64,000 nucleotides of DNA, taken from positions 3,722 to 67,721 of the forward strand of contig JAAZOM010000029.1 of assembly GCA_012797775.1 (NCBI GenBank), read 5' to 3'. Shown piece after piece: positions 2,862-56,963 of the stretch. A program made the position numbers and the translations under genes. The notes beneath the pieces are model-generated. The model was not told the origin of the DNA, did not search any database, and saw only the letters and a list, made by a program, of their open reading frames with translations. Numbering within the stretch: the first letter of the stretch is position 1; the number at the start of each line of letters is the position of its first letter. Origin of the DNA: Candidatus Kuenenbacteria bacterium (GTDB lineage: Bacteria > Patescibacteriota > Patescibacteriia > UBA2196 > GWA2-42-15).

Positions 2862-3425
2862 TTATATTTTATCGCGGAGTTTGAGATCGTAGATGATCGA
2901 TTCTATTTTCTTGAGATTGGTGCCGATGATTTCTAGTTTGGTCCGAGTGGAATTATTTCTAGTGATACTCAAAGGAATAATCAAATCATAGATTTTGGAG
3001 ACATAGTCGTGAATGGCTTTAACCTGTTTTTCGTTTTGATGGGCTAGCCGGACGAGTTCACCGGTCAGATCGGAGAGACCGCCGAGATAAGTGTCGGGCG
3101 TGACCTTGAGCGAGGTGGCAGTGGGCAGGGGTTTATTTTTTATATAATTGTAAAGTAGGACAGCCTCGACGTATTCTTCAAAACCGACATTGATGGCGGG
3201 GATGGCATAAAGATATGGATGGCGACCTAACTTTTTTTGAAGGACATCAAAGATTTTGTGCATTTCCGGTAAGTTTTTGACCACGGCCTCGGAATTATTT
3301 TTAATCAGAAAACTGATAGTTGATTTGGATAAAATTCGTAGCTTGTCGGAGAGATTCATGCAAGCGCTGCGTTCGCGGTTGTGCTCTTCGTAGAGCCTGT
3401 AGGGGATCTGGGGAAGTTTGGGCAT
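2862..3425 (-). CDS. Translin-family protein (putative)
   Basis: YLGGLSDLTGELVRLA resembles the translin/TRAX signature. Recognised by eye only. Confidence 0.4.
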   Translation of the reverse strand: MPKLPQIPYRLYEEHNRERSACMNLSDKLRILSKSTISFLIKNNSEAVVKNLPEMHKIFDVLQKKLGRHPYLYAIPAINVGFEEYVEAVLLYNYIKNKPLPTATSLKVTPDTYLGGLSDLTGELVRLAHQNEKQVKAIHDYVSKIYDLIIPLSITRNNSTRTKLEIIGTNLKKIESIIYDLKLRDKI

Positions 3426-3456: not shown

Positions 3457-3533
3457 TGGTGGGCATGCTGGGATTTGAACCCAGGACCCCCACTTTATAA
3501 GAGTGGTGCTCTAACCAACTGAGCTACATGCCC
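3457..3533 (-). tRNA. tRNA with anticodon TAT (tRNA-Ile-UAU type), CCA encoded
   Basis: Cloverleaf GGGCATG..anticodon stem CCACT/AGTGG with loop CTTATAA..GGGTTCAAATCCCAG..CATGCCCACCA. Confidence 0.75.
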
Positions 3534-9968: not shown

Positions 9969-10679
9969 ATGGAAAAAAGTGAGCAGATGAAAGATTTGGA
10001 AAAAAGATTGGGAGTAGAATTTAAAGATAAAAATTTGTTGAAAGAAGCATTGGTGCACCGTTCATATATCAACGAACACCCCAGTTTTGCCGTAAATCAT
10101 AATGAGAGATTGGAATTTTTGGGAGATGCGGTACTGGAGCTAATTGTGACGGAGTATTTGTTTAGAAATTATCCAAATCCGGAAGGAGAAATGACGAATT
10201 GGCGGGCAGCGCTTGTTAATGCCAAGATGCTCGCGGAAATCGGAGGATCTTTCGACCTGTATGCTTATCTTTATTTGTCGAGGGGGGAGTCAAAGGATAA
10301 TAATATTAAGGCAAAAAATTATATTATTGCCAATGCAGTAGAGGCGGTGATTGGGGCGATTTATATCGATCAGGGGTTTGAGGCAGCTAGGGTTTTTATT
10401 ACCAATAATATTTTAGCGCGTTTGAATTATGTTTTGGAACACAAGCTGTACATGGATGCCAAGTCACACTTTCAGGAGATAACACAGGAAAAAATGGGGA
10501 TTACGCCGAGCTACAAGGTGGTAGAAGAAAGCGGACCGGACCATAATAAAAAATTTGTCATCGGAGTATATTTGGGAGAGGAATTGATCGCTCGTGGCGA
10601 GGGTACGAGCAAGCAGGAAGCACAGATGGCCGCGGCGGAAAACGCGCTGATACAGTGGGAGAATGAGGGAAAGATATAG
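9969..10679 (+). CDS. rnc: Ribonuclease III
   Basis: ERLEFLGDAVLELIV catalytic signature and a C-terminal dsRBD. Confidence 0.95.
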   Translation: MEKSEQMKDLEKRLGVEFKDKNLLKEALVHRSYINEHPSFAVNHNERLEFLGDAVLELIVTEYLFRNYPNPEGEMTNWRAALVNAKMLAEIGGSFDLYAYLYLSRGESKDNNIKAKNYIIANAVEAVIGAIYIDQGFEAARVFITNNILARLNYVLEHKLYMDAKSHFQEITQEKMGITPSYKVVEESGPDHNKKFVIGVYLGEELIARGEGTSKQEAQMAAAENALIQWENEGKI

Positions 10680-10759
10680 ATTAATTTTTAATTTTATAAT
10701 TTTTAATTTTTAAACAATTTTCAATTTTATAATTTTTAAAATAAGAAAGAGTGCCATGA

Positions 10760-10830
10760 GGCGCTCTTTTTGGTTTATAAAAAATAAAAAACCTGCCAAG
10801 ACAATTTCGTCTGGCAGGTTTGCTCTGTGG
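10760..10830. terminator. Bidirectional terminator pair between rnc and the GC-rich island
   Basis: Hairpin AAGAGTGCC..GGCGCTCTT followed by T-run on the plus strand. Hairpin CCTGCCAG..CTGGCAGG followed by TTTTTTATTTTTT on the minus strand. Confidence 0.55.
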
Positions 10831-11236
10831 GGGTGCCCCGACACTTTTTTCTGCCGCGCTCGGCAGGTGCGATGCGGGATTATGCCACAAAGGCTTCACC
10901 AGGGTGTTACGCCGCGGAACCTTCCGTCATCAGGTTGAAGGTTTGGCCGCGAATTTTGGTGGTGAGCATAAGCTCCCTCCTTTTTACCAGTATCGGCCAC
11001 ATTGGACCAGGATCTTCCTCTGGTCACAGTTGACTGCTATTTCAGTTTAACCCCGGGTTGTTTTTTTGTCAAAACCTTGACTAATTTTGATAAAAGTGTT
11101 AGGGCAAAAATAGGTCTTTGTGACTTGCAAAAAACATAAAAAATTAAATAGGGGCCGTGCAAACCCCTAGGAGGAAACGCTTGCACAATAATTCACGTGG
11201 TACAGAGCAGTTCATTTCCAACTCTCGGGAGGGAGT

Positions 11237-11794
11237 ATGAAACAGCTCTTGCTTTTCTGCGCGTTTGCGCTTCTGCTGGCGGTCCTGGTGGCCGCATCGC
11301 CCCCGGTGATCCTCGGTGCGATGACCAGCGAATCCAACTTCGGCGCCATCGGCTCGATCGGAAACCCCTGCGAACAGGACAAAAATCTGCAAGGCGGCGC
11401 CGACAACAAATTCCCGGCCGGCGAATTCGCTGGCGCCAATGTCGCCAAGTTGACCTATGCCTATATGACCACCTCAGCCGCCCTGAACGGCGCCGCGACC
11501 GCGAATAAGAACTTTTCGCCGCGGCTGGCCGTCACCACCGACCTCGTGGCATCATCGAAAAACGCCCAGGTCGCTTTGAACGAAATGATCGAATCGATTC
11601 AGACCTCCGGCACGGTAGAGTCCGCCGGTATGGTCGAAAATTACAGCAGAGAATTCGCCGAGAACGGCCGGATCAGTTCGAATGTGGGTGGCGCCGATAA
11701 CAAATTCCAGCGCGCCGTCAGCACCAGCTCCACCCTGTCCGGGAAGAAGAGTGCCGTCGTGAACAAGACCGTGAACTGCGTCTACCGCGCCTAG
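11237..11794 (+). CDS. Secreted hypothetical protein with signal peptide, in a high-GC foreign island
   Basis: N-terminal hydrophobic signal MKQLLLFCAFALLLAVLVAAS. ~60% GC with GCC/GGC/CTG codon usage unlike the rest of the window. Internal repeat GGADNKF occurs twice. Strong terminator follows. Confidence 0.7.
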   Translation: MKQLLLFCAFALLLAVLVAASPPVILGAMTSESNFGAIGSIGNPCEQDKNLQGGADNKFPAGEFAGANVAKLTYAYMTTSAALNGAATANKNFSPRLAVTTDLVASSKNAQVALNEMIESIQTSGTVESAGMVENYSREFAENGRISSNVGGADNKFQRAVSTSSTLSGKKSAVVNKTVNCVYRA

Positions 11795-11845
11795 CCGAAT
11801 CTCGGCCAAGCCGGTAGTCTCCAAAAGAGACCCGTGAAGTCTCAC

Positions 11846-11880
11846 GAGGGGTGATGCTTGTCATCGCCCCTCTTTTTTAT
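11846..11880 (+). terminator. Rho-independent terminator
   Basis: GAGGGGTGATG..CATCGCCCCTC hairpin followed by TTTTTTATTTTT. Confidence 0.8.
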
Positions 11881-11882
11881 TT

Positions 11883-11916
11883 TTGACTTTGGGCAAAATT
11901 TATGCTATACTGATAT
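11883..11916 (+). promoter_or_regulatory. Sigma70-like promoter (TTGACT-17nt-TGcTATACT)
   Basis: -35 TTGACT, 17-nt spacer, extended -10 TGCTATACT. The core is identical at 18809-18841. Confidence 0.55.
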
Positions 11917-12212
11917 TAGATTAAGAACTATCAGGTGAGCAATGATAGTTTTTAATTTGGCAAAACAGAAGAGAAAACAAAAATTAACAACCAAGGAGCA
12001 GAAATATTTTTATAAGTTTTTGAAAAAATGATCGCAGGATCTGGGCGGTAGTAAAAAGTATAAAGGATATCGCCGCAAAAATATGAAGCCCAAACAATAA
12101 TTAGATTGTTAGTTTTAGAACAGAAAGAGAGAGCGGCCCAGAGGAGCACTTTGACAAATCGGGAAAGTAAAAACAAAAATCAAAAATCCCTAAGAAGGGA
12201 TTTTTTGTTTTT
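11917..12212 (+). ncRNA. Candidate sRNA or small-protein transcript (promoter to terminator, ~300 nt)
   Basis: Bounded by the promoter at 11883 and a hairpin+T-run terminator at 12183-12212 (ATCCCTTAGAAGGGAT TTTTTG). Contains only a 29-aa ORF. Confidence 0.3.
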
Positions 12213-12228
12213 AGAATAAATAATTCAA

Positions 12229-12558
12229 CTAAATTTTTTCTATGTCTAGACCATTTTCAACAAAGAACTGAGAATAATATCTTTCTGGACCATCTAGCTG
12301 CTCATTAAATTTAATAATAATTGAGTCATCTTGTCTTTCTACCATACCCTGAAATGCTTGGTCGCAATAATTTTGTGTTTCTATGTCACTTCTCTCCCCA
12401 CCAAATCCAAACTCTCCAATATCTGGCAAACTAAATAAAAATTCTTTTGAGAATCCTTGCTTTATTTTTGTCCAGTCGTCAAATTTTATAGATACTTGTT
12501 CATTTGGTTTAAAAAATTTTTGACGCATGTCTTGCTCGGTTCGTTCAGCGGCTGTCAT
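12229..12558 (-). CDS. Hypothetical protein
   Basis: 109-aa ORF with no recognisable motifs. Confidence 0.5.
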   Translation of the reverse strand: MTAAERTEQDMRQKFFKPNEQVSIKFDDWTKIKQGFSKEFLFSLPDIGEFGFGGERSDIETQNYCDQAFQGMVERQDDSIIIKFNEQLDGPERYYSQFFVENGLDIEKI

Positions 12559-12590: not shown

Positions 12591-12665
12591 TGGAGCGGGT
12601 AGGGGGAGTCGCACCCCCATCTTGTCCTTGGCAAGGACACATAATAGCTGCTATACGATACCCGC
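12591..12665 (-). tRNA. tRNA-Trp (anticodon CCA), CCA encoded
   Basis: Cloverleaf GCGGGTA..anticodon loop TGCCAAG..GGGGGTGCGACTCCCCC..TACCCGCTCCA. Confidence 0.85.
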
Positions 12666-39914: not shown

Positions 39915-40727
39915 ATGAATAATGAACAAGCAAAAAGAATAATGGAAATTAGCAAAAAGACCTACGAGATGATTGCGGCGGATTTTTCAGCGACGAGAAA
40001 TAGGGTGTGGCCCGAGATGGAGATATTGGTCAAAAAGTATGTAAAGCCGGGGATGAAGGTGTTGGATTTGGGGTGTGGGAATGGGAGACTTTTGGAGGTT
40101 TTACCGGAGGTGGAATATTGGGGAGTGGACGTGTCAGAAGGATTGGTGGGAGAGGCAGAAGATAAACTCAAAACTCAAAACTCAAAACTCAAAACAGTTT
40201 TTAGGGTGTTGGATATGTTGGAGCTGGAAAAACTGGGAGAGAAAAATTTTGATGTGGTATTTATGTTTGCGAGTTTGAACCATATTGCGGGAGAAGAAAA
40301 TAGATTGAAAGTTTTGGAAGAGATAAAAAAAATATTAAAGCCGGGCGGAGTGGTGGTGATGACGAATTGGAATATGTGGCAGGTGGGGGCGGGGAAGAAC
40401 ATGTGGAGATATAAATTACAATTTTCAAGATACAAGATACAAGATACAAATAAATCCCAAATTTCAAATTCCAAATCCAAAATAAATCCCAAATTTCAAA
40501 TTCCAAAATTTGGTTTAGGATTTAGGGATGCGATGACGAGATGGCAGAGTGGAGACAAAAAAAGGGTCGGGGAGCTTTATTACCGAGCGTTTAATTTGGT
40601 GGAGTTGAGAAAATTGATGCGGGAGGCGGAGTTTGAGGTGGTGGAGAATTATTATTCTTTGGATGGGAAGAGGGCGTGTTGGTGGAATGGAAGGAATATT
40701 GTGAGTGTGGGAAAATTTAATGGATAA
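39915..40727 (+). CDS. Class I SAM-dependent methyltransferase
   Basis: VLDLGCGNGRL motif I. Contains in-frame heptamer repeat insertions. Confidence 0.75.
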   Translation: MNNEQAKRIMEISKKTYEMIAADFSATRNRVWPEMEILVKKYVKPGMKVLDLGCGNGRLLEVLPEVEYWGVDVSEGLVGEAEDKLKTQNSKLKTVFRVLDMLELEKLGEKNFDVVFMFASLNHIAGEENRLKVLEEIKKILKPGGVVVMTNWNMWQVGAGKNMWRYKLQFSRYKIQDTNKSQISNSKSKINPKFQIPKFGLGFRDAMTRWQSGDKKRVGELYYRAFNLVELRKLMREAEFEVVENYYSLDGKRACWWNGRNIVSVGKFNG

Positions 40728-40756: not shown

Positions 40757-43615
40757 ATGAAAAAGGAAAAAATAGCTATAATTGATGCCAATGCAATAGT
40801 CCATCGGGCGTTTCATGCCCTGCCGCCTTTGATGACCAAGGACGGGGTTCTGGTCAATGCGGTCTATGGTTTTGCCAATATTTTATTGAAAGTTTTGAAA
40901 GACATAAAGCCGGAATATGTGGCGGTGTGTTTTGACGTATCGAAAGAAACTTTTCGCTTGGAAATGTATAAAGAGTATAAGGCGCAAAGGGAAAAGCAGC
41001 CTGATGAATTGTATAGCCAAATTGATTTGGTGAAAGAGATGATTGGGGCGTTTAATATGTCGATTTTTGCCGTAAAGGGGTTTGAAGCCGATGATTTGAT
41101 AGGGACTATTGTAAAAAAAATCCAAAATTTTAATGTCAAACAAAATCCAAAATCCAAAATCCAAAAAGGGAACGAAATTGAGAGTGTGGTTGTGACGGGG
41201 GATATGGATACTTTGCAGCTGATAGGTGATAATACCAAAGTTTACACTCTAAAAAAAGGCATTGCAGATACAATTATTTATGATGAGACGGCGGTCAGAG
41301 CGCGGTATGGATTTGGCCCGGAGGCAATGGTTGATTACAAGGCGCTTAGAGGCGATCCGTCGGATAATATACCGGGAGTGAAAGGTATAGGGGAGAAGAC
41401 GGCAACGGAATTGATAAAAGAATTTGGGACGCTGGAAAAAGTGTATGAGTATGTTGAACAAACCCAAAATCCAAAATCCAAATTTCTAATCAAATCCAAA
41501 ATCCAAAATCAAAAAGATTTAAAAATAAAAGGAGCGGTATTAGAGAAATTGATGGAGCATAAAAAAGAAGCGTTTTTGTCCAAGGAGTTGGCGACGATTA
41601 AGACAGATGTGCCAATGAAATTTGACTTGGAAGGGTGCCGAGTGAGACCATTTGACGCACCAAAAATTGTAGAATTATTTCAGGCGTGGAATTTTAAATC
41701 ATTGATCGCCCGAATTCCCGCAGCGGAAAAAGAGCTGACAAGGGGGCAGGGGAGTTTGTTTGCTAAAAGAGAGGAGACTAGAGAAGAAAGAAAGGTTGAT
41801 TTTGAAATAGGAAAAGGATATATATTGGTTGATAGCCAAGAGAAAGTAGAAAGGTTTTTGGTGGAACTCGGAAAACAAAAAATATTTGCCATTGATACAG
41901 AGACAAATGGGCTGGATCCGTTTCAGGCTGATTTGATTGGAATTAGTTTTAGTTTTGAAGAGGGGAAAGGGTATTACCTGCCTGTCGGAAGAAATTTTCA
42001 ATTTTCAATTTTCAATTTTCAATTATTATTAAATAAATTAAAACAGATTTTGGCGGATGGGGGTATTAAGAAGGTGGGGCATAATATTAAATTTGATATG
42101 GAGACTTTGGCTGGGGCGGGATTGGAACTGAAAGGAGTGGAATTTGATACCATGGTGGCGTCTTATCTTTTGAACCCGGGGACAAGACAGCACAATCTTG
42201 ATGCGGTGGTATTCACTGAATTTGGTTATGAGATGACACCGATAGAGAGTCTGATAGGTAAGGGGAAAGACCAGATTACAATGGATAAAGTAGAATTAAA
42301 CAGGGTGGCGGATTATGCGATTGAGGATGCTGACTATACTTGGCGGTTGTATAAAAGATTGGACAAACAATTGATAAAAAACAAATTGCGAGAATTGATG
42401 GATAAAATTGAGACGCCATTAATTTCAGTTTTGGCTGAAATTGAGAAAAATGGGGTTTTGGTTGATGTAAAATTTCTTGGCAAGATGAGTCGTGAAGCAG
42501 GGGAAAGAATAAAAGAATTGGAGAAAAAGATTTATAAAATGGCAGGGCGGGAATTTAATGTGCGTTCGCCAATACAACTTAAAGAGGTTTTGTTTGATGA
42601 GATGGGGATTTCAAGGTTGGGGTTGGCAAAAACCAAAACGGGAACCTCAACAGCCGCAGCAGAGCTGGACAAACTGCAGGGCGTTCATCCGATTATTGAT
42701 TTGATTTTGGAGCATCGGGAATTGTCAAAATTGAAGAGCACCTATACAGATGCTTTGCCGGAGTTGATAAACCCAAAGACCGGCCGGATCCATGCTTCAT
42801 TTAATCAGACAGTAACAGCGACCGGGAGGCTGTCATCTTCAGAGCCAAACTTACAAAATATTCCTATCAGAACAGAATTGGGCAAAAAAATTAGGCAGGC
42901 ATTTGTGGCACCCAAGGGTTTTAAGATAGTAACGATAGATTATTCGCAGATAGAGCTCAGGATTGCGGCTTCAATGTCGGGTGATAAGAAAATGTTGCAA
43001 GCTTTTAAAAATAGTGAGGATATCCATCGGCGAACGGCGGCAGAGGTTTTTGGTGTAAAACCAGAAGCGGTGACACCAGAAATGAGGCGCAAGGCCAAAG
43101 AAGTAAACTTTGGGGTTTTGTATGGGCTGGGGGCTAGGGGCTTGGCGCAGAGAACCGGGACGAGTTATGAAGAGGCAATGCTTTTTATTGAAAAATATTT
43201 TGAGATATTTGGTGATTTGAAAAATTATTTGGAGGAAACCATTGAGCAGGCACATGAAAATGAATATGTGGAGACGCTTTTTGGCCGGAAACGTTATTTG
43301 CCAGAGATCAATGCTGAACACCAACAGCTAAGGGCGGCAGCAGAGAGAATGGCGGTCAATCAACCAATCCAAGGTACGGCGGCTGACCTGATGAAGCTGG
43401 CGATGATAAAAATAGATGAGATGCTTAAAAAAGATAAGCTTGGGGAGATAAAAATGGTTTTGCAGGTGCATGATGAGTTGGTATTCGAAGCTCCAGACAA
43501 TATGGCAGAGGTGATTGGCAAAAAAATGAAAGAAACGATGGAAAGTGTTTATAAATTTAAGTGTCCAATAGTGGCAGAGATGTCTATTGGTAATAATTGG
43601 GGAGAATGTAAATAA
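40757..43615 (+). CDS. polA: DNA polymerase I
   Basis: 5'-3' exonuclease N-terminus, 3'-5' exonuclease-like middle, pol A motifs (DYSQIELR, QVHDELVFE). Three in-frame repeat insertions. Confidence 0.95.
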   Translation: MKKEKIAIIDANAIVHRAFHALPPLMTKDGVLVNAVYGFANILLKVLKDIKPEYVAVCFDVSKETFRLEMYKEYKAQREKQPDELYSQIDLVKEMIGAFNMSIFAVKGFEADDLIGTIVKKIQNFNVKQNPKSKIQKGNEIESVVVTGDMDTLQLIGDNTKVYTLKKGIADTIIYDETAVRARYGFGPEAMVDYKALRGDPSDNIPGVKGIGEKTATELIKEFGTLEKVYEYVEQTQNPKSKFLIKSKIQNQKDLKIKGAVLEKLMEHKKEAFLSKELATIKTDVPMKFDLEGCRVRPFDAPKIVELFQAWNFKSLIARIPAAEKELTRGQGSLFAKREETREERKVDFEIGKGYILVDSQEKVERFLVELGKQKIFAIDTETNGLDPFQADLIGISFSFEEGKGYYLPVGRNFQFSIFNFQLLLNKLKQILADGGIKKVGHNIKFDMETLAGAGLELKGVEFDTMVASYLLNPGTRQHNLDAVVFTEFGYEMTPIESLIGKGKDQITMDKVELNRVADYAIEDADYTWRLYKRLDKQLIKNKLRELMDKIETPLISVLAEIEKNGVLVDVKFLGKMSREAGERIKELEKKIYKMAGREFNVRSPIQLKEVLFDEMGISRLGLAKTKTGTSTAAAELDKLQGVHPIIDLILEHRELSKLKSTYTDALPELINPKTGRIHASFNQTVTATGRLSSSEPNLQNIPIRTELGKKIRQAFVAPKGFKIVTIDYSQIELRIAASMSGDKKMLQAFKNSEDIHRRTAAEVFGVKPEAVTPEMRRKAKEVNFGVLYGLGARGLAQRTGTSYEEAMLFIEKYFEIFGDLKNYLEETIEQAHENEYVETLFGRKRYLPEINAEHQQLRAAAERMAVNQPIQGTAADLMKLAMIKIDEMLKKDKLGEIKMVLQVHDELVFEAPDNMAEVIGKKMKETMESVYKFKCPIVAEMSIGNNWGECK

Positions 43616-48952: not shown

Positions 48953-51900
48953 ATGTCTAATACGAACAGGAAAAATGAGAGATTTTATTTCGGGCGCAAA
49001 CATGATGTTCATGATTTGCCTGATTTAATAGAGAGCCAAAAGAATTCTTATAAGTGGTTTGTAGATGAGGGGTTAAGAGAATTGTTTGAAGAGATCAATC
49101 CAATAAGAGATTATATTGGGAGAGATTTGGAATTATATTTTTCCGATTATTTTTTGGATGAACCAAGGTTTGACGAAGTGGTGGCTCGTAAGAGAAATAC
49201 AACCTATGAAGCGGCACTTCGTGTAAAGACAAAACTGGTGAATAAAAGAACTGGTGAAGTAAAGGAACAGGAGGTTTATTTGGCTGATTTTCCTTTGATG
49301 ACCGACAGGGGAACCTTTATCATTAACGGGATTGAAAGGGTGATAGTTTCTCAACTTATAAGATCGGCGGGAGTATTTTTTACTTCAGAATATATAATGG
49401 GTAAGAGATATTATGGAGCAAAAATTATTCCAAATAGGGGAGCTTGGTTGGAAATAGAGACAGGAGCCAATGGGGTGATCACGGTGAAGATAGATAGAAA
49501 AAGAAAAGTGCCGATAACTTCACTTATGCGGGCTTTTGGTTATACAACCGATGAGGAGATAAAGGAAATCTTTAGGGATGTCGACATATTGCCTGATTTT
49601 AAATATATAAATATCACCTTGGAAAAGGATCCAGCTAAAACAGAAGCTGATGGCTTGAGAGAAGTTTATAAAAGAATAAGACCGGGAGATTTGGCAACAA
49701 CCGACAACGCTAGGACCTTGATACATTCAATGTTTTTTAATTTTGATAGATATGATTTTGGCAAGGTGGGACGTTATAAGCTCAACCAGCGTTTTGGGGA
49801 AAATTCACCTTTGGATAGAGAAAACAGGGTTTTTAAGAAGAGCGATTTGGAAAATATTTTAAAAGAAATAATTAAACTTAATATCAGCCAAAGAGAGGCA
49901 GACGATATAGACCATCTTGGTAATAGAAGGATCAGGGCGGTGGGCGAATTGATACAAAATAGATTTCGTTTGGGGATGGCCAGAATGGAGAGAGCAATAG
50001 TGGACAAGATGAGCACGGTGGACATAGCTAGCGTTAATCCAGCACAGCTTATTAATGCCAGACCAATTATGGGAGCAGTGAAGGAGTTTTTTATGTCTTC
50101 ACAGCTTTCCCAATTCATGGATCAGACAAATCTTTTGGCTGAGTTGGAACATAAGCGCAGAATTTCTGCCATGGGCCCGGGGGGGCTTTCGCGCGAGAGA
50201 GCAGGCTTTGAAGTGAGAGATGTACATCGTACTCATTATGGCAGGATTTGTCCAATTGCTACGCCAGAGGGTCCAAATATCGGGCTAGTCGGCCATTTGT
50301 CTTCTTATGCCCGGGTGAATAATTATGGTTTTATAGAAACACCCTATAGAAAAGTAATAAAAAGCGAGAGCAATAAACCAAGGGTGACAAAGGAAATAGT
50401 TTATTTGGATGCTTTTGCTGAGGAAAAATCAACAACTACGGCAGCAACGACTCCGATTGATGATCAGGGTAATTTTTTACAAGAAAAAGCAGCTATTAGA
50501 AAAGAGGGCGAGCCAGTTTTGGGATCAGTAGAAGAGATTGATTATATGGATGTGGCGCCAAATCAGATAGTTTCAGTGGGGACATCTTTGATACCATTTT
50601 TGGAGCATGATGACGCCGTGAGGGCCCTTATGGGTACAAACATGCAAAGACAGGCAGTGCCAGTAATAAAGCCAGGGGCTCCGCTCGTGGCAACAGGCAT
50701 TGAGAGATCAGCGGCGATTGGTTCGGGGCAGGTTTTGGCGGCAGAAAATGATGGCACGGTTTTGAATGTTCAAGCGGACAAAATAGAAATTTTGGAAGAA
50801 GATGGCAACATAAGAACTCATAATTTGGTAAAATTTGTTAGATCCAATGCTTCAACGTGTTTAAATCAGCGAGTAATAATAGAAAAAGGAGACAAGGTGA
50901 AGAAGGGGGATGTTTTGGCTGATAGTGCTGCTTGCGATCAAGGGGAGTTGGCTTTGGGACAAAATTTATTGGTGGCTTTTATGCCTTGGGAAGGCGGTAA
51001 TTATGAAGATGCTATATTACTTTCCGAAAAATTGGTTCACAACGACAAGTATACTTCTATTCATATTGAGGATTATATTATTGATGTACGCGAGACAAAG
51101 TTGGGGCCAGAGGTCGTGACTAGAGACATACCAAATATTGGAGAAGAAAAACTCAAAAATCTGGATGAAGACGGCGTGGTAAGAATTGGAGCTGAAGTTT
51201 CCTCAGGTGATATCTTGGTGGGGAAAATAACACCAAAAGGAGAAACAGAGTTGACGGCTGAAGAGAGATTGCTTCGGGCAATTTTTGGTGAAAAGGCCAA
51301 AGAAGTTAGAGATACCTCTTTATATTTGGAGCATGGTGAACACGGAAAAGTTGTGGATATAAAATTATTTACTAGAGCAGCGGGTGATAAGTTGCCAGCT
51401 GGGGTAATAAAACAGATCCAAGTTTCCGTGGCTCATATGAGAAAAATACAAGTGGGGGACAAGATGGCTGGGCGTCATGGCAATAAGGGTGTAGTCTCAA
51501 GAATCGTGGCGGTAGAAGATATGCCCAGACTACCAGATGGTACGCCAGTAGATATTATTTTGAATCCTTTGGGCGTGGCATCGAGAATGAACTTGGGGCA
51601 AATATTGGAAACCCATTTGGGGCTGGTAGCTCACGATAGAGGGTTGAAGGTGGTGACGCCGCCCTTGGACGGAGTGCCAGAAGAAACAATAAAAAAAGAA
51701 CTTGAGGAACTTGGTTATTCAAAGACAGGCAAGATGGTTTTGATTGATGGCAGAACTGGTGAGCCATTTAAAAATCCTAGTACGGTTGGTTATATCTATA
51801 TGTTAAAGTTGGTGCATATGGTGGAGGATAAAATCCACCAGAGGTCAATTGGTCCATATTCTTTGGTAACACAACAACCACTTGGCGGTAAGGCTCAATT

Positions 51901-52246
51901 CGGCGGGCAGAGATTTGGGGAAATGGAGGTCTGGGCGCTTGAGGCTTATGGTGCGGCTTATACATTGCAGGAAATTTTGACCATAAAATCAGATGATGTG
52001 CCGGGCAGGTCAAAAGCCTATGAATCGATAATCAAGGGTGAGGCAATTAGCAAGCTAAATATCCCAGAATCTTTTAATGTTTTGATAAGAGAGCTCAAGG
52101 GGCTATGCCTGGATGTGGAACTAATGAAAGAGGGCGGGGTGGTGAACAAAGATGGAGAGTTTAAGATAGTGGACGGCATGACAAAGAAAGAGATAAAGGA
52201 AAAAGCTACAGAAGAGGCAGCAGGAGAAGATGGAGAGGAATCCTAA
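48953..52246 (+). CDS. rpoB: DNA-directed RNA polymerase subunit beta
   Basis: 1097 aa with conserved beta-subunit blocks (e.g. [18 protein letters not shown]). Confidence 0.97.
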
Positions 52247-52266
52247 TTATATATAAATAATGATTT

Positions 52267-55200
52267 ATGTTTAATGAATTCCAACAACCAGTATTAGATT
52301 TTGATAGCATTCGTCTCAAAGTGGCCTCACCTGAGGCAATACACAAGTGGTCACATGGGGAGGTTTTAAAGCCGGAGACTATTAATTACCGCACACAGAA
52401 GCCAGAAAAAGATGGTTTATTTTGCGAGCGCATTTTTGGCCCGACTAAAGATTGGGAGTGTTATTGTGGCAAGTATAAAAGAATACGCTATAAGGGAATC
52501 GTGTGTGATAAGTGCGGAGTGGAGGTGACCAGGTCGATAGTTCGAAGAGAGAGGATGGGGCATATTGATCTCGTAGTGCCAGTCTCACATATCTGGTTTT
52601 TGCGCGGCATTCCTTCAAAATTGGGATTGGTTTTGGATATTTCCCCACAGGCATTGGAGAGAGTGATATATTTTGCTGATTATATCATTTTAAAAGTTGA
52701 CGAAGAGTTGAAACAACAAACAGTAGAACAGATACAAGATGAATATAAATCTAGGAAGAAACAGATAGAGGGTGATTTTAATAATAGAATAAAGCAAGCC
52801 GGTGGCAGTGATCCAGCCAAAAAAGAGGCCCTGATTAATCAACTTAACAATGCCAAAAAAGAGGCATTGGATGAGCTAGCTGCGGCTTTGGACAAAGCTA
52901 AAAAAGAATTGTCAGAATTAAAACCATTAAAAATTATTTCCGAGAGTTCTTATCAGGATTTATCATTAAAATATGGACATGTTTTTGATGCAGGTATTGG
53001 AGCAGAAGCAGTTCATCGTATACTTCAGGATTTGAATTTGCAGGCGACAATAGATCAGATAGAGGCAGAAATGAAAAAAACTACTGGTGGGGCAAAAAAG
53101 AAGATGGCCAAAAGATTGAAATTGTTTAATGCCTTGATAAAAAATCAGATAAAGCCTGAATGGATGATTATCACAAGTTTGCCGGTAATCCCGCCGGATC
53201 TGCGGCCGATGGTCCAGCTCGACGGGGGGAGATTTGCGGCTAGTGATTTGAACGATTTGTATCGTCGGGTGATAAATCGCAATAACCGTTTGAAAAAATT
53301 GATAGAGCTGGAAGCCCCAGAGGTTATTTGTCGTAACGAAAAAAGAATGCTTCAGGAGGCAGTGGACGCCCTGATTGATAATTCGGCCAGGCATGGCAAG
53401 ACGGTGACTGCGTCAACCGGACAAAAAAGAATGCTTAAATCTTTGGCGGATATTTTGAAAGGCAAGCAGGGTCGTTTTCGTCAGAATTTGCTCGGTAAAA
53501 GAGTAGACTATTCGGGCAGAAGCGTAATAGTAGTCGGACCATATTTAAAAATAAATGAATGTGGTTTGCCAAAGAGAATGGCTTTGGAATTGTTCAAGCC
53601 GTTTATTATTGCGGAGCTCATAAAGAAGGAGTATGTACATAATGTTAGAAGTGCCAATAGATTTATAGAATCTGACAGAAGTGAAGTTTGGGATATTTTG
53701 GAAAAGATAACCAAAAAGGCGCATGTACTTTTGAATCGTGCGCCAACGCTGCATCGTTTGGGTATTCAAGCTTTTAAACCGATATTAATAGAAGGTAAGG
53801 CGGTACAGCTCCATCCTTTGGTTTGTCCACCTTTCAATGCAGATTTTGACGGAGACCAGATGGCAGTGCATGTGCCTTTGACCGAAGAGGCAAAACAAGA
53901 AGCGGCTGAGATAATTTTATCTAGTAAAAATATTTTGAAACCAGCAACTGGTGATCCTTCAATCACGCCATCGCAGGATTTTGTATTGGGTTGTTATATT
54001 TTGACCAGTATAAAAGAGAAAGAAGGTGAAAAGACAAAAATCTTTTCTAGCGAAACAGAAGCCACACAGGCTTATGAAGCCAACGTGATCGGGCTTCAAG
54101 ATAAGATAAAAGTGCGTTTGAAAAAAGAAGGATTGGTGGAGACAAGCATCGGCCGTCTTATTTTTAATAGAATCGTGCCAGAGAGTATGGGTTTTGTGAA
54201 TAAACAAATGGATAAGGGCGCCCTAAAAAATTTAGTTAGAAATGTACTAGAGAGTGATGGCACAGAGAGTGCAGTGGAATTTTTGGATAGCATAAAAGAT
54301 CTTTCTATAAAATATGTGACTTTGTCAGGGATTTCTTGGGGTATGGATGATTTGCCTGATTTGCCTGAGAAGCACGCCATTTTTGAGGAAGCGGAAAAAG
54401 AAGTAGAGGAAGTAGAAAATCAATATAATCTTGGTTTTCTCACCAACGATGAACGGCACGTGAAGATCGTAGAAATTTGGGCTGGAGTAAAAGATAAGGT
54501 GGCTGATTTGTGTAAAGAAAAGCTGGACAAGGGCGGATCGGTATTTGCGATGATGAATTCTGGTGCCAGAGGATCATGGGGGCAGACGACTCAGATGATG
54601 GGCATGAGAGGACTTATGGCCAATCCGAGTGGCGATACGATTGAGTTACCAGTGAAAGCATCGTTGAAAGAGGGAATGCAAGTGCTTGAATATTTCATTA
54701 CAACTCATGGTGCTAGAAAGGGACTTTCAGATACGGCTTTGCGTACCGCTAATGCAGGATATTTGACTAGAAGATTAATAGATGTGGCTCAGGATGTAAT
54801 TATTTCTGAGGAAGATTGTGGTGATGAAGAGGGTGTCGCGATAACTAAAAAAGAATCACAGGCGATGAACGAGACGGTGGTGAAAAGAATAAAAGGCAGA
54901 GTGCTCTCAGAGGATATCCTAGATGCCAAGGGAAAAGTAGTGGCCAAGGCAGGCGAAGTTGTTGATGAGGATTTGGCCAAAAAAATAGAGGCTTTGGATC
55001 CAGAGGAAATAAAAATTAGATCGGTTTTGTCATGTAAATCAAAGAGAGGAGCTTGTGCCAAATGTTATGGCTGGGATCTTGGCTATAATCATCTGGTTAG
55101 AAATGGTGTAGCTGTTGGTATTATTGCCGCTCAGAGTATTGGTGAGCCGGGTACCCAGTTGACCATGAGAACTTTTCATACTGGTGGTGTGGCCGGAAGC

Positions 55201-56166
55201 GGGGATATCACCCAAGGTTTGCCAAGGGTAGAAGAGATTTTCGAGGCCCGGCCGGTAAAGAAGCCGGCAATTATTGCGCCGGTGTCTGGCACGGTAGAGA
55301 TAGTTAATAATGAGATCACTAGGGAAAAATTGATTAAGATTGCTGGTGTAGAGACAGAAGAAGAGAAGTTTTTTGTGCAAGGTAAAAACCAGGAAAAGGT
55401 AGCAGTTAAAAATAATGCCAAGGTAAAAAAGGGAGATATTTTAGTGGAGGGGCAGAAAAAAATCAGAGCGCCATTTGACGGCAAGGTGGTGATAGAAGAA
55501 GAAAACGAGAGCCGGACAATACTCAAGGTGGTCAAAGAAGAAGAAGTGGTCAAAGAGATGGAGATAGGTCGTGGAGTGACGATACTCGTCAATAATGGAG
55601 ATTGGGTAGAAAAGGGAGATCAGCTGACCAGTGGCTCGATAGATCTTTTTGAGCTTTATAAACTCAAAGGCCAGAGGGCAGTAGAAAATTATGTGATTAA
55701 AGAAATACAATATGTTTATTCTTCACAGGGTCAGCCGCTTAATGATAAACATATTGAAGTTATTGTGAAAAAGATGTTCTCCAAGGTTTTGATTGAAGAC
55801 GCAGGCGATACACTGTTTTCACCCGGAGAAGTTATAGAGAAAGTCGACTTGGATGAGGAAAATGAAAAGATGGATAAGGAGAAAAAACAAAAGGCCATTG
55901 CCAATACAATACTACTTGGTATTACTAAATCATCTTTAGCTACACAGTCATTTTTGTCAGCGGCTTCTTTCCAGGAAACAACAAGAGTCCTTATTGACGC
56001 GGCTATTACCGGAAAGGTTGATCATTTGAGAGGGCTTAAAGAGAATGTGATTATAGGCAAGCTCATACCCTGTGGTAGCGGCTATGATAAAGAGGCATAT
56101 CTGCCGAAAAGAGAAGTGGAAGTAGAGGAAAGCGAGGAGGCGGTAGGGCTGGCAGAGGAAGCTTAG
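52267..56166 (+). CDS. rpoC: DNA-directed RNA polymerase subunit beta'
   Basis: 1299 aa with a zinc ribbon ([14 protein letters not shown]) and the [12 protein letters not shown] catalytic motif. Confidence 0.97.
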
Positions 56167-56180
56167 GAAATATTTAAAAC

Positions 56181-56220
56181 ATCCCTAGTGAGAACTGGGG
56201 ATGTTTTATTTTTGTAATTT
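56181..56220 (+). terminator. Rho-independent terminator after rpoC
   Basis: ACATCCCTAGTGAGAACTGGGGATGT hairpin followed by TTTATTTTTG. Confidence 0.7.
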
Positions 56221-56253
56221 TTTAACAAGGGGCTTTGCTTTAGGTGGGCTAAA

Positions 56254-56706
56254 TTAAGCTTTGTTTTTTAGTAGCTTGATGGCTTCCAAAGAAAGTGCTT
56301 TTGTATTTTTGGGGGCGCCCCCAAGAGTTTTTATTTCCTTGGCAGTAAACCATTTTAGGTTGGTGGTCTCTCCATTTTGCGGATTAATTTTATTAGATTT
56401 AGCTGAAGCATAATAGATAAAGTCTATATGTTGGTGGAATTGATTGATATTTTCCAGCAAGATGTGCATGGGGCGAAATAATTGCTTGGCATCTCCCATT
56501 TTTATTTGTTTATCAGGATTATACATTGTTATTTCTAGGCCAGATTCTTCTTTTATTTCGCGCAAGGCGGCTTCCTGCGGCAATTCATCGCGGTCGATAT
56601 GGCCTCCAACAGGAATCCAAATACCGAGCTTTTTGTGCAAATGTAAAAGCACTTTATTTTTGTGTACTATTATGGTTGTAGCGGTAAAGTGTCTTGTTAT
56701 TTCCAT
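56254..56706 (-). CDS. NUDIX hydrolase
   Basis: Nudix box GGHIDRDELPQEAALREIKEESGL. Confidence 0.8.
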   Translation of the reverse strand: MEITRHFTATTIIVHKNKVLLHLHKKLGIWIPVGGHIDRDELPQEAALREIKEESGLEITMYNPDKQIKMGDAKQLFRPMHILLENINQFHQHIDFIYYASAKSNKINPQNGETTNLKWFTAKEIKTLGGAPKNTKALSLEAIKLLKNKA

Positions 56707-56734
56707 ATGGAAAATAGCGAAGCGAGTGATGTCC

Positions 56735-56955
56735 GCATAACGTACGCGTGTATGTGATGTCCGCCGTTAGGCGGATATGGGCGAAGGTTCACCGATAGGG
56801 GAACCGTAGCCACATACACGCTGTTATATGATGTACGCTTTTTCTTTTAACCCAATAGGGTCGTTTTTCTGTTATAGATCAAATTGATTTTTCATTTGGC
56901 GGGGGCGCAAGAGGGAAAATCAAAAAGGGTGAATTGCGCCCCCCGCCAACACAAT
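56735..56955 (-). ncRNA. Structured noncoding leader element, copy 1 (upstream of the NUDIX gene)
   Basis: An 11-bp outer stem GCGTGTATGTG/CACATACACGC encloses two hairpins. Conserved single-stranded TGATGT, ATATGGG.G.AGG and GTTATATGATGT blocks. A second hairpin has the conserved loop GAGGGAAAAT.AAAGGGTGAA. It is homologous to 59372-59660 with compensatory stem changes. Confidence 0.45.
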
Positions 56956-56963
56956 CGTATTAA

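What the first reader, a model, noticed from the sequence alone, without database searches (positions are those of the whole stretch)
10800..11880. High-GC (~60%) island encoding a secreted protein inside a ~38% GC genome
A ~1.1-kb segment between rnc and the next gene has markedly different base composition and GC-rich codon usage. It is bracketed by terminators on both sides (10760-10830 bidirectional; 11846-11880). It encodes a 185-aa protein with a classic signal peptide and an internal duplicated GGADNKF motif. This is most simply explained by recent horizontal acquisition or an assembly chimera.
Basis: seen in the sequence. Interest (0 to 1): 0.7.

Follow-up and report, generated by a model that had tools for sequence, protein, structure and literature searches.

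The report
GC-rich variable exported-protein gene cassette
A small self-contained gene for an exported orphan protein, written in strikingly GC-rich codons, sits in a variable slot next to the RNase III gene of a Kuenenbacteria (CPR) genome; it is real, not an assembly error, and old rather than newly acquired, but its function is unknown.

Summary
ORF 11237-11794 has GC 0.59 and GC3 0.78, against 0.405 +/- 0.054 for 46 other ORFs (z about 7), and it is the only such stretch in 64 kb. The product has a signal peptide and two GGADNKF copies.

Contigs from other sequencing runs reproduce both junctions exactly, so it is not a chimera. Related species carry homologous GC-rich cassettes in the same rnc-adjacent slot (same promoter, 5'UTR hairpin and signal peptide). 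Their housekeeping synonymous sites are saturated, so it is not a recent import. One close relative has the slot empty.

Within the window's species two alleles exist. Flanks are 99.6% identical, while the module is 81% identical in blocks ranging from 44% to 99%. All ORF indels are in frame, and dN/dS is about 0.9.

The family has five sequences among 15 billion proteins and no detectable relatives, fold or domain.

The left part (10792-11072) is a separate minus-strand unit with a 20-codon ORF.

Best reading: a clade-restricted, recombining accessory cassette for a fast-evolving exported protein. Its GC-rich synonymous composition is somehow maintained, and that is unexplained.

The parts
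10748..10767 (+). Intrinsic terminator hairpin of rnc. This is the left boundary of the variable module, not part of it.
   Evidence: AGAGTGCC-ATGA-GGCGCTCT followed by TTTTTGG. An equivalent hairpin follows rnc in L007, L088 and L089. Divergence from the L001 allele starts at about 10770.
10778..10818 (-). Terminator of the minus-strand unit: hairpin 10792-10818 followed, on the minus strand, by a U-run.
   Evidence: CCTGCC..GGCAGG stem, then TTTTTTATTTTTT on the minus strand. Kept in L001 at 95.7% identity together with the 3' region.
10819..10906 (-). Conserved, GC-rich (0.56) 3' region of the minus-strand transcript.
   Evidence: About 96% identical between the two alleles, while the 5' half is scrambled. 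Predicted nested stem-loops; the whole 261-nt RNA has z = -2.95 against shuffles, but the opposite strand gives a similar z = -2.97. No Rfam match.
10907..10969 (-). Small ORF of 20 codons, MLTTKIRGQTFNLMTEGSAA (putative).
   Evidence: GGAGG at 10980-10976 lies 6 nt before the ATG. The L001 allele keeps GGAGG + 6 nt + ATG and a 21-codon ORF, MMYSPIARGQTFNKSSEGFAA, with the RGQTFN and EGxAA-stop motifs conserved, although the DNA is only 68% identical. Seen only in this species. Translation is inferred.
11044..11072 (-). Sigma-70-like promoter of the minus-strand unit.
   Evidence: TTGACA-17-TAAACT, 10 of 12 matches. The L001 allele has TTGACA-17-TAAAAT despite a different spacer sequence (read from the alignment).
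11077..11105 (+). Promoter of the cassette gene: -35 TTGACT, 17-nt spacer, extended -10 TGTTAGGGC (inferred).
   Evidence: TTGACTAATTTTG is invariant in the window, L001, L007 and L088. All four have TGn before a TAnnGY hexamer at the same spacing. The region 11057-11198 is 99.3% identical between alleles. The consensus scan did not call it because the -10 is weak.
11151..11174 (+). 5'UTR hairpin (GGGGCCGTGCAAACCCC) followed by AGGAGG.
   Evidence: The equivalent hairpin + A(G)GAGG is present in the L007 and L088 5'UTRs, which are about 150 nt longer. Its role is unknown.
11227..11235 (+). Shine-Dalgarno region GGGAGGGAG of the 185-aa ORF.
   Evidence: Read from the sequence. GGAGG-type sites also precede the ATG in L001, L007 and L088.
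11237..11794 (+). Cassette gene: 185-aa exported orphan protein (NCBI NMC51922.1, GYA54_04360), GC3 0.78.
   Evidence: All 8 indels against the L001 allele are multiples of 3. GC3 > GC1 > GC2. The ORF, SD and signal peptide are kept in four alleles. The mRNA is no more structured than shuffles, z = -0.30. No Pfam, NCBIfam, PHROG, PADLOC or PDB match.
11237..11320 (+). Signal peptide (residues 1-28): MKQ, hydrophobic core, SPP, then ..LGA|M as the probable signal-peptidase I site.
   Evidence: Kyte-Doolittle maximum 3.23 at residues 4-18. The pattern 'hydrophobic core-SPP-4 residues-A-M' is conserved in P0002, P0003 and P0004. There is no lipobox Cys. The cleavage site is inferred from the -3/-1 rule; no SignalP tool was available.
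11393..11413 (+). GGADNKF motif, copy 1.
   Evidence: Identical in the L001 allele.
11687..11707 (+). GGADNKF motif, copy 2.
   Evidence: It differs from copy 1 by two synonymous changes (GGC/GGT, GAC/GAT), so it is conserved at the protein level. It lies in the 97.9%-identical block 11603-11743.
11846..11872 (+). Intrinsic terminator of the cassette gene; right end of the module.
   Evidence: 11-bp stem with 7 GC pairs, then TTTTTTATTT. Identity to the L001/L002 allele returns to 99.6% from 11881.

Best explanation
Window 10770-11880 is a native, clade-restricted accessory module of a Candidatus Kuenenbacteria genome. It occupies a variable slot between the rnc terminator and a conserved downstream small-RNA-like unit.

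Its core is an autonomous transcription unit: own promoter, 5'UTR with a hairpin, SD, ORF and terminator. It encodes a small protein exported through the Sec pathway. The signal peptide is conserved, and the mature part (about 110-157 aa, rich in Ala/Ser/Asn/Gly/Thr) evolves so fast that it is unalignable between species whose RNase III is 92% identical.

The cassette was present in the common ancestor of the window, L088 and L007 lineages, and was deleted in L087/L089. Within the window's species at least two old alleles segregate. They are mosaics, produced by recombination that uses the conserved promoter/UTR, motif blocks and terminators as homology. In this species the module also contains a divergently transcribed minus-strand unit with a 20-codon ORF and a conserved structured 3' region.

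Inferred function: the mature protein acts outside the cell, at the cell surface or in interaction with a host, competitor or phage, under diversifying or frequency-dependent selection.

The GC-rich synonymous codon usage is a long-standing property of the ORF that something maintains. It is not a residue of recent transfer.

Shown: reality of the sequence, synteny, homology of the regulatory and signal regions, presence/absence, mosaic divergence, coding frame, orphan status. Inferred: export, extracellular role, mode of selection, cause of the GC bias.
For: Not an artefact: L004 matches 10692-11955 (both junctions) and L005 matches 10692-11834 at 100%, from other runs.

Synteny and homology: clpP-L32-nusB-rnc-[slot] in L001, L007, L088 and L090. 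Shared promoter TTGACTAATTTTG, UTR hairpin + AGGAGG, SD/ATG. Signal peptides: P0003/P0004 are 49% identical over 45 aa (E 1e-9); P0001/P0003 give E 3e-4. This order follows the RNase III tree.

Age: rnc pS 0.72-0.77 between the window and L007/L088.

Empty site: L087/L089 have 166 nt between rnc and the anchor. Against L007 (RNase III 99.2% identical) the indel is about 927 nt.

Mosaic alleles: flanks 12 mismatches in 2,949 nt; module 204 mismatches + 47 gap columns in 1,077 nt; blocks from 44% to 99% identity.

Coding: 8 of 8 indels in frame. The motif copies differ only synonymously.

Selection: dS 0.172, dN 0.155, ratio 0.90 (bootstrap 0.56-1.52). Differences by codon position are 26/25/22. 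Clustering p = 0.0002. Flanking genes have pS about 0.01 and pN 0.

No hypermutation: L090 and L007 differ by 4 nt in 3,005, two of them in the ORF. P0004 is identical on 14 contigs.

GC bias: GC3 0.66-0.78 in all occupants against an expected 0.43-0.46. It is confined to the ORF, and the promoter/UTR have GC 0.32-0.43.
Against: Only five sequences and four alleles are known, so selection tests are weak. The dN/dS interval includes 1, which is compatible with neutral drift of much of the mature protein.

There are no expression or proteomic data. Export is inferred from sequence rules only. AlphaFold gave no usable model, pLDDT 34.6.

Homology between the window cassette and the L007/L088 cassettes rests on about 25-45 residues plus regulatory DNA. 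P0001 against P0004 alone is not significant, E 0.30.

A cassette resident since the common ancestor should have lost a GC3 excess by amelioration. I can name no tested force that keeps it. That leaves room for repeated re-import into the same slot.

The minus-strand unit is seen in one species only, and its ORF is supported by two alleles.
Confidence: 0.6

Rival explanations
1. Recent horizontal acquisition of a gene from a GC-rich (about 60% GC) donor into this genome.
For: Codon usage is like that of a roughly 60%-GC genome: GC3 0.78, CAI-like 0.65 against host 0.75 +/- 0.03. GC skew is about 0 against +0.3 for the neighbours. The segment is accessory, being absent in L087/L089.
Against: Homologous GC-rich cassettes lie in the same slot in lineages separated by saturated synonymous divergence. 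The promoter and 5'UTR are host-like and shared. No donor or relative was found in 5.8e9 clusters, 1.84e9 representatives, GTDB, phages, plasmids or viral contigs. There are no mobility genes or flanking repeats in the window.
Confidence: 0.08
2. Recurrent site-specific re-import. The cassette is a small mobile or exchangeable unit drawn repeatedly from an unsampled GC-rich reservoir (for example the host organism of the episymbiont, or an element) into the rnc-adjacent slot, perhaps via the flanking REP-like palindromes.
For: GC3 stays high despite the expected amelioration. The indel unit in L007 is bounded by CCTCACCC..CCCTCTCC..GGAGAGGG elements, which also occur in L006, L086 and L088. 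Some blocks are only 44-49% identical between alleles, which amounts to non-homologous replacement.
Against: No reservoir sequence exists in any collection searched. The window module lacks REP-like flanks. Cassette similarity follows the species tree. No recombinase was seen in the slot or beside it (ORF lists); the other window ORFs were not scanned.
Confidence: 0.12
3. Not a functional protein gene. The ORF is open by chance in stop-poor GC-rich DNA, and the segment is a structured RNA or a decaying remnant.
For: dN/dS is about 0.9, with an interval that includes 1. There are no homologs or domains, and AlphaFold pLDDT is 34.6. Long antisense ORFs also occur.
Against: 8 of 8 indels are multiples of 3; the chance of that is about 1.5e-4 if indel lengths were random with respect to frame. 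SD, ATG and signal peptide are conserved in four alleles. Blocks of 47 codons have 3 differences, next to blocks at 49% identity. The motif copies differ only synonymously. RNA fold z = -0.30 and there is no Rfam hit.
Confidence: 0.07
4. Secreted bacteriocin- or pheromone-like factor with allele-specific partner. This is a more specific version of the best explanation's extracellular role. The conserved leader with a variable mature part, together with the co-varying small peptide gene, would form a strain-specificity (pherotype or toxin-immunity-like) pair.
For: Near-identical flanks with sharply divergent alleles resemble pherotype loci. Both the ORF and the divergent small-ORF unit vary between the same two strains. 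There is a conserved Sec leader on a variable mature region. P0002 has a weak similarity to the CTB bacteriocin family (E 0.13, 12.5 bits against a cut-off of 32), which is not significant.
Against: No processing, transport, sensor or immunity genes are adjacent. The small peptide is hydrophilic and is absent in L007 and L088. No family match passes threshold. No pairing signal exists between the two RNAs.
Confidence: 0.12
5. Assembly chimera.
For: There is an abrupt compositional change at both ends.
Against: L004 gives a 100% identical contig across both junctions, and L005 across the left junction, from two other runs. The same context with a second allele appears in three more runs, and the same slot architecture appears in other species.
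Confidence: 0.01
6. Targeted hypermutation of the diversity-generating-retroelement type.
For: CPR genomes are known to carry DGRs (my own knowledge), and the locus is hypervariable between two strains.
Against: There is no template-like repeat of any island sequence in 64 kb. Substitutions are not adenine-specific and include many indels. Alleles are stable across samples, and L090 against L007 shows only 2 nt differences in the ORF.
Confidence: 0.02

Closest known systems
Compositionally atypical genomic islets (horizontally acquired accessory genes)
   Same: The GC, GC3 and GC skew are atypical. The gene is accessory, with presence/absence between close relatives, and it is an orphan.
   Different: The GC excess is confined to the ORF, while the promoter and UTR are host-like. 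A homologous occupant sits in the same slot across species with saturated dS. There is no donor, no mobility gene and no flanking direct repeat in the window.
Allelic hypervariable ('pherotype'-type or surface-antigen-type) loci such as agr, comQXP or variable surface-protein genes (from my own knowledge)
   Same: Near-identical flanks (99.6%) surround sharply divergent, mosaic alleles. Conserved segments serve as recombination anchors. Both dS and dN are elevated.
   Different: No processing enzyme, sensor or transporter genes are present. There is no homology to any such family. Only two alleles are known in the species.
Sec-dependent small secreted bacteriocins (for example the lactococcin 972 or enterocin P type; from my own knowledge)
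   Same: A small protein with a classical signal peptide, encoded in an autonomous unit, and strain-variable.
   Different: No sequence match: Pfam and NCBIfam give nothing above cut-off. There are no adjacent immunity or ABC genes. The mature part is long and of low complexity.
Diversity-generating retroelement target genes in CPR bacteria
   Same: The same bacterial radiation, and a variable exported or surface protein.
   Different: There is no template repeat, no adenine-specific pattern, indels are present, and alleles are stable.
GC-rich subtelomeric gene content in an otherwise AT-rich Cryptosporidium canis genome (PMC10438818; title and abstract only), and the recombination-GC3 association in bacteria (Lassalle et al. 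2015, PMC4450053)
   Same: Locally elevated GC or GC3 in an AT-rich genome, at a recombining and fast-evolving locus.
   Different: One comparison is a eukaryotic chromosome-end phenomenon. The bacterial gBGC effects reported are differences between gene classes, not a 0.35 jump in GC3 for one gene. Nothing here tests a fixation bias.
Integron or REP-flanked gene cassettes
   Same: A discrete module of about 0.9-1.1 kb. In L007, L088 and L086 it is bounded by GC-rich palindromic repeat elements.
   Different: It has its own promoter and terminator. No integrase or attC-like site was identified. The window copy lacks the repeats.

Membership tests
Sec-exported protein (signal peptidase I type) | Short basic n-region, a hydrophobic core of 10-15 residues, a polar c-region with small residues at -3/-1, and no further membrane segment. 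| tested here: met
   MKQ, then the core at residues 4-18 (Kyte-Doolittle 3.23), then SPPVILGA|M. The next-best hydrophobic window scores 0.77. The pattern is conserved in four alleles. Only rule-based assessment was possible; no SignalP tool was available.
Bacterial lipoprotein | Lipobox L-[AS]-[GA]-C at the end of the signal peptide. | tested here: not met
   There is no Cys after the hydrophobic core. Cys8 lies inside the core and is absent in P0002.
Recently acquired genomic island | Atypical composition. | tested here: met
   GC3 z = 7.1.
Recently acquired genomic island | Absence from the orthologous site of related lineages, with a recognisable donor or mobility signature (integrase, tRNA target, direct repeats). 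| tested here: not met
   Homologous occupants are present in L001, L007, L088 and L090. Only L087/L089 are empty, and they are nested within occupied lineages. There is no repeat pair in the window. No donor was found. No integrase-sized ORF lies in the slot. The nearest tRNA (Gly, 12591-12665) is not adjacent.
Diversity-generating retroelement target | A template/variable repeat pair with adenine-specific differences. | tested here: not met
   There is no second copy in 64 kb. The substitution spectrum is spread over all classes and indels occur.
Diversity-generating retroelement target | A reverse transcriptase gene nearby. | not tested
   The window's other ORFs were not scanned against Pfam. 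The rest of the genome is not available.
Any Rfam RNA family | A covariance-model score at or above the gathering threshold. | tested here: not met
   Only tRNAs pass in the window. The best permissive hits in 10650-12250 are far below threshold.
CTB-family bacteriocin (NF038167) | HMM score at or above the curated cut-off of 32 bits. | tested here: not met
   P0002 scores 12.5 bits, E 0.13. P0001 has no hit.
Pherotype-type signalling locus | Linked processing, export and receptor genes that co-vary with the signal. | tested here: not met
   The slot contains only the cassette gene and, in one species, the small-ORF unit. The neighbours are rnc and a conserved RNA-like unit, and they are invariant.
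Integron gene cassette | A promoterless ORF with attC, next to an integrase and attI. | tested here: not met
   The cassette has its own conserved promoter and terminator. No integrase-sized ORF lies in the slot or immediately beside it. attC was not formally modelled.

The most novel reading that the evidence does not exclude
The GC-rich synonymous composition is actively maintained in a fast-evolving exported-protein cassette of an AT-rich CPR genome. The force could be selection for GC-ending codons or GC-biased repair or conversion at a recombination hot spot. It has acted across a whole genus despite complete synonymous turnover of the surrounding genes. Unrelated Patescibacteria (L034, L077) also carry GC3 0.78-0.85 orphan ORFs with export signals. 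This may therefore be a recurrent compositional class of exported orphan genes in CPR bacteria rather than a one-off.
Probability: 0.25. Interest if true: 0.6.

Novelty: new variant of a known kind. Interest (0 to 1): 0.4.

Why it matters
CPR/Patescibacteria are thought to live attached to other cells. Their exported orphan proteins are prime candidates for the molecules that mediate that contact, yet almost none are characterised.

This locus gives a cleanly delimited, independently transcribed example. It has natural alleles, a natural deletion, and conserved regulatory and signal parts, which makes it easy to follow in metagenomes.

It is also a useful caution for island-calling. A GC3 deviation of 7 standard deviations here does not mark a recent transfer.

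If the GC bias proves to be actively maintained, the locus would be an unusually sharp bacterial test case for GC-biased conversion against codon selection.

Tried and rejected
1. Structured RNA gene in the GC-rich DNA. Rfam found nothing at gathering or permissive thresholds. The ORF mRNA fold has z = -0.30.

2. DGR or template-driven mutagenesis. There is no repeat copy, the spectrum is not A-specific, and alleles are stable.

3. Remote homology. I tried a word-indexed search (twice, the second time with a 4-allele profile), exhaustive HMMER on 1.84e9 representatives, Pfam, NCBIfam, PHROGs, PADLOC and PDB sequences. All were negative.

4. Structure prediction. pLDDT was 34.6, so I ran no fold search.

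5. Donor or mobile origin. GTDB species genomes, INPHARED phages, PLSDB plasmids and IMG/VR gave nothing.

6. The minus-strand RNA as an antisense regulator of the ORF mRNA. Duplex energies are no better than shuffles (z = -0.4 and -0.15) and there is no allele specificity. The method was crude: whole-length duplexfold.

7. Amino-acid composition as the cause of the high GC. It explains only 0.405 to 0.47.

8. Translational optimisation. The likely highly expressed genes in the window, L32 and the two long ORFs at 48953-56166 (their identity was not checked), have GC3 0.36-0.39.

9. My first protein-level alignment misplaced in-frame indels and overstated divergence. It is replaced by the codon-aware alignment.

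10. A plus-strand ORF in 10820-11050. Indels against L001 there are 1, 1, 2, 2 and 5 nt, so it is not coding on that strand.
Full report
**1. The observation**

The window is an AT-rich genome, GC about 0.40 in nearly every 1-kb bin. The deposited identical protein names it as Candidatus Kuenenbacteria (NMC51922.1, GYA54_04360).

GC rises to 0.58-0.60 over 11200-11900 and to about 0.50 over 10800-11100. ORF 11237-11794 has GC 0.59 and GC1/2/3 = 0.53/0.47/0.78. The 46 other ORFs of the window have GC 0.405 +/- 0.029 and GC3 0.405 +/- 0.054, so z = 6.6 and 7.1. No other 558-nt stretch exceeds 0.50.

With the host's codon usage the same protein would have GC 0.47 and GC3 0.43. Most of the excess is therefore synonymous.

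The signal peptide, the two GGADNKF copies and the bracketing hairpins are as described. It is two GC-rich blocks separated by an AT-rich region (GC 0.32-0.43) that holds divergent promoters and the 5'UTR.

**2. Anatomy**

The left block belongs to a minus-strand unit:
- a sigma-70-like promoter at 11072-11044;
- GGAGG at 10980-10976, 6 nt before an ATG;
- a 20-codon ORF at 10969-10907;
- a conserved GC-rich 3' region;
- a hairpin at 10792-10818 followed by a U-run.

The right block is a plus-strand unit:
- a conserved -35 (TTGACT at 11077) with an extended -10;
- a 5'UTR hairpin followed by AGGAGG (11151-11174);
- an SD at 11227-11235;
- the 185-aa ORF;
- a strong terminator at 11846-11872.

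No Rfam family matches either block. The ORF mRNA is no more structured than shuffled controls, z = -0.30.

**3. Not a chimera**

Logan contigs from two other sequencing runs match the window at 100%. L004 covers 10692-11955 and so crosses both junctions. L005 covers 10692-11834, crossing the left junction and ending inside the 3'UTR.

Three further runs (L001-L003) carry the same gene order, clpP-L32-nusB-rnc-[module]-109-aa gene, with a different allele of the module.

**4. Two mosaic alleles in one species**

Against the L001/L002 allele, the flanks differ at 12 of 2,949 positions (99.6% identity). The module 10770-11880 differs at 204 of 1,077 aligned positions plus 47 gap columns (81.1%).

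Divergence is blocky. The shared promoter/UTR segment 11057-11198 is 99.3% identical and codons 123-169 are 97.9% identical. Codons 104-122 are 49% identical and the minus-unit 5' region is 44% identical.

All eight ORF indels are multiples of three.

A codon-aware alignment gives dS 0.172, dN 0.155 and dN/dS 0.90 (bootstrap 0.56-1.52). Differences are even over codon positions (26/25/22) and significantly clustered, p = 0.0002. L32, nusB and rnc each have one synonymous and no non-synonymous change.

Synonymous divergence is thus also about 17-fold above the flanks. The segment has a different genealogy from its surroundings; it is not simply a positively selected protein.

It is also not hypermutating:
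- L090 and L007 differ at 4 of 3,005 positions, two of them in the ORF.
- P0004 is identical on 14 contigs.
- There is no template-like repeat in the window, and the substitution spectrum is not adenine-specific.

**5. The slot in other species**

I scanned GTDB species genomes with the window's RNase III. I scanned metagenomes with a 22-mer from the conserved unit just downstream of the module. These retrieved the orthologous region in several related lineages.

- L007 has a 1,097-nt slot with a 136-aa ORF.
- L088 has a 1,146-nt slot with a 152-aa ORF, GC3 0.70.
- L087 and L089 have only 166 nt between rnc and the anchor.

The occupants share with the window:
- the promoter TTGACTAATTTTG;
- a UTR hairpin followed by AGGAGG;
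- the SD/ATG;
- a signal peptide of the form 'hydrophobic core-SPP-xxxx-A-M'.

P0003 and P0004 are 49% identical over their first 45 residues (E 1e-9). P0001 against P0003 gives E 3e-4 over 23 residues. P0001 against P0004 is not significant. This order follows the RNase III tree (window,(L006,(L088,(L007,L089/L087)))).

Beyond the signal region the proteins are unalignable, even between L007 and L088, whose RNase III is 91.9% identical.

L007 (occupied) and L089 (empty) have 99.2% identical RNase III. Their difference is an indel of about 927 nt, bounded in L007 by CCTCACCC..CCCTCTCC..GGAGAGGG palindromic elements. Parsimony on the tree favours one deletion over three insertions.

**6. Age against composition**

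Synonymous sites of rnc are saturated between the window and L007/L088, pS 0.72-0.77. A GC3 excess inherited from their common ancestor should therefore have decayed.

Yet GC3 is 0.66-0.78 in every occupant, against an expected 0.43-0.46. The excess starts at the start codon and ends near the terminator.

'Recent acquisition from a GC-rich donor' is thus not the simplest reading. No donor was found in any of these searches:
- 5.8 billion protein clusters, searched twice, the second time with a four-allele profile;
- an exhaustive HMMER pass over 1.84 billion representatives;
- tblastn-confirmed scans of GTDB genomes and IMG/VR;
- phage and plasmid records at blastn sensitivity.

The whole family is five sequences among about 15 billion.

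What keeps GC3 high is unexplained. The candidates are selection on GC-ending codons, GC-biased conversion at a recombination hot spot, or repeated re-import from an unsampled pool. An association between recombination and GC3 is documented in bacteria (PMC4450053). By my recollection those effects are only a few percentage points, far smaller than seen here.

**7. What the protein is**

No Pfam, NCBIfam, PHROG, PADLOC or PDB-sequence match passes any threshold. AlphaFold gave pLDDT 34.6, so I attempted no fold search.

From the sequence:
- It has a classical Sec signal, with the probable cleavage site LGA|M, and no lipobox.
- There is no second hydrophobic segment.
- The mature part is rich in Ala/Ser/Asn/Gly/Thr and nearly charge-balanced.
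- Each allele type has its own internal repeats: GGADNKF in the window, PDLSPP in L007, SPPV..N in L088.

The two GGADNKF copies differ only by synonymous changes and are invariant between alleles. This argues that the protein is functional.

I therefore commit to this reading: an exported, extracellularly acting protein under diversifying or frequency-dependent selection, in a recombining accessory cassette. The specific activity is unknown. A bacteriocin- or pheromone-like role with the small peptide as partner is possible, but no linked gene supports it.

**8. The minus-strand unit**

It is present only in the window's species. Between the two alleles the promoter hexamers and spacing are preserved. 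So are the SD with its 6-nt spacing and an ORF of 20/21 codons with the conserved RGQTFN and EGxAA-stop motifs. This holds although the DNA is 44-68% identical there. The 3' 115 nt are 96% identical.

I found no complementarity to the ORF mRNA beyond shuffled controls. Its role is open.

**9. Verdict**

The finding is real and more structured than described: a clade-restricted, variable, exported-protein cassette. The chimera idea is refuted and the recent-transfer idea is not supported.

In kind it is a strain-variable accessory orphan gene, which is ordinary. Three features are unusual:
- the sharp, ORF-confined and apparently long-maintained GC3 excess;
- the clean natural series of alleles and a deletion;
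- two other GC3-rich orphan ORFs with export signals in unrelated Patescibacteria loci.

Interest is moderate.

Noticed in passing
window 11883-12205 (+); also L007 2530-2815, L088 2863-3140, L089 3615-3900, L086 (minus strand) about 3070-3361: A conserved small-RNA-like unit forms the right edge of the slot in every species. It has a near-consensus promoter (TTGACT-17-TATACT with TG), an invariant 50-nt 5' region containing a 17-bp hairpin (AGATTAAGAACTATCA..TGATAGTTTTTAATTTG), and a conserved terminator at 12182-12205. The ORF starting MIVFNLA varies from 11 to 36 codons and indels are not in triplets, so it is probably non-coding. There is no Rfam match. RNAalifold finds 59 pairs, 4 of them with compensatory changes. 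The window copy has an extra 50 nt.
   Followed up: partly
L034 1396-2775 (+); L077 3127-3939 (-); L077 6404-7135 (-): Among only six GC outliers in 783 kb of Patescibacteria rnc neighbourhoods, two more are orphan ORFs with export signals. L034 has a 459-aa ORF, GC3 0.78, with a lipobox-like LLVLVACFNFLAGC. L077 has a 270-aa ORF, GC3 0.85, starting MKRNGLKFLFMGLLLPAIMA. Neither has a Pfam domain. This may be a recurrent class of GC-rich exported orphan genes in CPR genomes.
   Followed up: partly
L007 1598-1660 and 2477-2529; L088 about 2818-2870; L006 5713-5745; L086 3390-3560 (minus strand): GC-rich palindromic repeat elements (CTCACCC..CCCTCTCC..loop..GGAGAGGG) flank the cassette in relatives and occur in tandem in L086. 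The window module has none; a loose pattern search (2 mismatches allowed) gave only three hits elsewhere in the window, which I did not inspect. They may promote the insertion/deletion of the module.
   Followed up: partly
L006 (ends 175 nt after rnc) and L086 (ends 366 nt upstream of the anchor): Two metagenome contigs from other lineages break inside or at the edge of this slot. That is what one expects if the slot is heterogeneous within those populations.
   Followed up: no
window 3457-3533 (-): ARAGORN calls a tRNA-Ile with anticodon TAT (UAU). To my knowledge most bacteria read AUA with a lysidine-modified CAU tRNA, so a genomic UAU tRNA-Ile is uncommon.
   Followed up: no
window about 56000-57500: GC skew is positive (about +0.1 to +0.48) across 1-56 kb whatever the gene orientation. 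It turns mostly negative after about 57 kb, where the long run of minus-strand genes begins. The cumulative-skew maximum suggests a replication terminus-like switch point.
   Followed up: no
window 10680-10745, and for example 40159-40510 and 41117-41515: Intergenic spacers are built from short periodic A/T-rich repeats (AATTTTTA / CAAAATCC-type units with a period of about 8 nt). The rnc-terminator spacer has GC 0.16.
   Followed up: no
L007 1527-1585 and L089 3553-3611: An element of about 55 nt (GGGYGGAGGTTRCYAGGTGTCTTCC..AGCTAGGAGYCAA) lies between the rnc terminator and the slot. It is conserved in both the occupied and the empty versions, and it is absent from the window. Its function is unknown.
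   Followed up: no
window 11192-11200; L088 and L007 just upstream of the cassette SD: A CACGTG-centred palindrome (CTCACGTGAG in L088, CTCATGTGAG in L007, TTCACGTGG in the window) lies shortly before the SD of the cassette gene in all species. It could be an operator or an RNA element.
   Followed up: no
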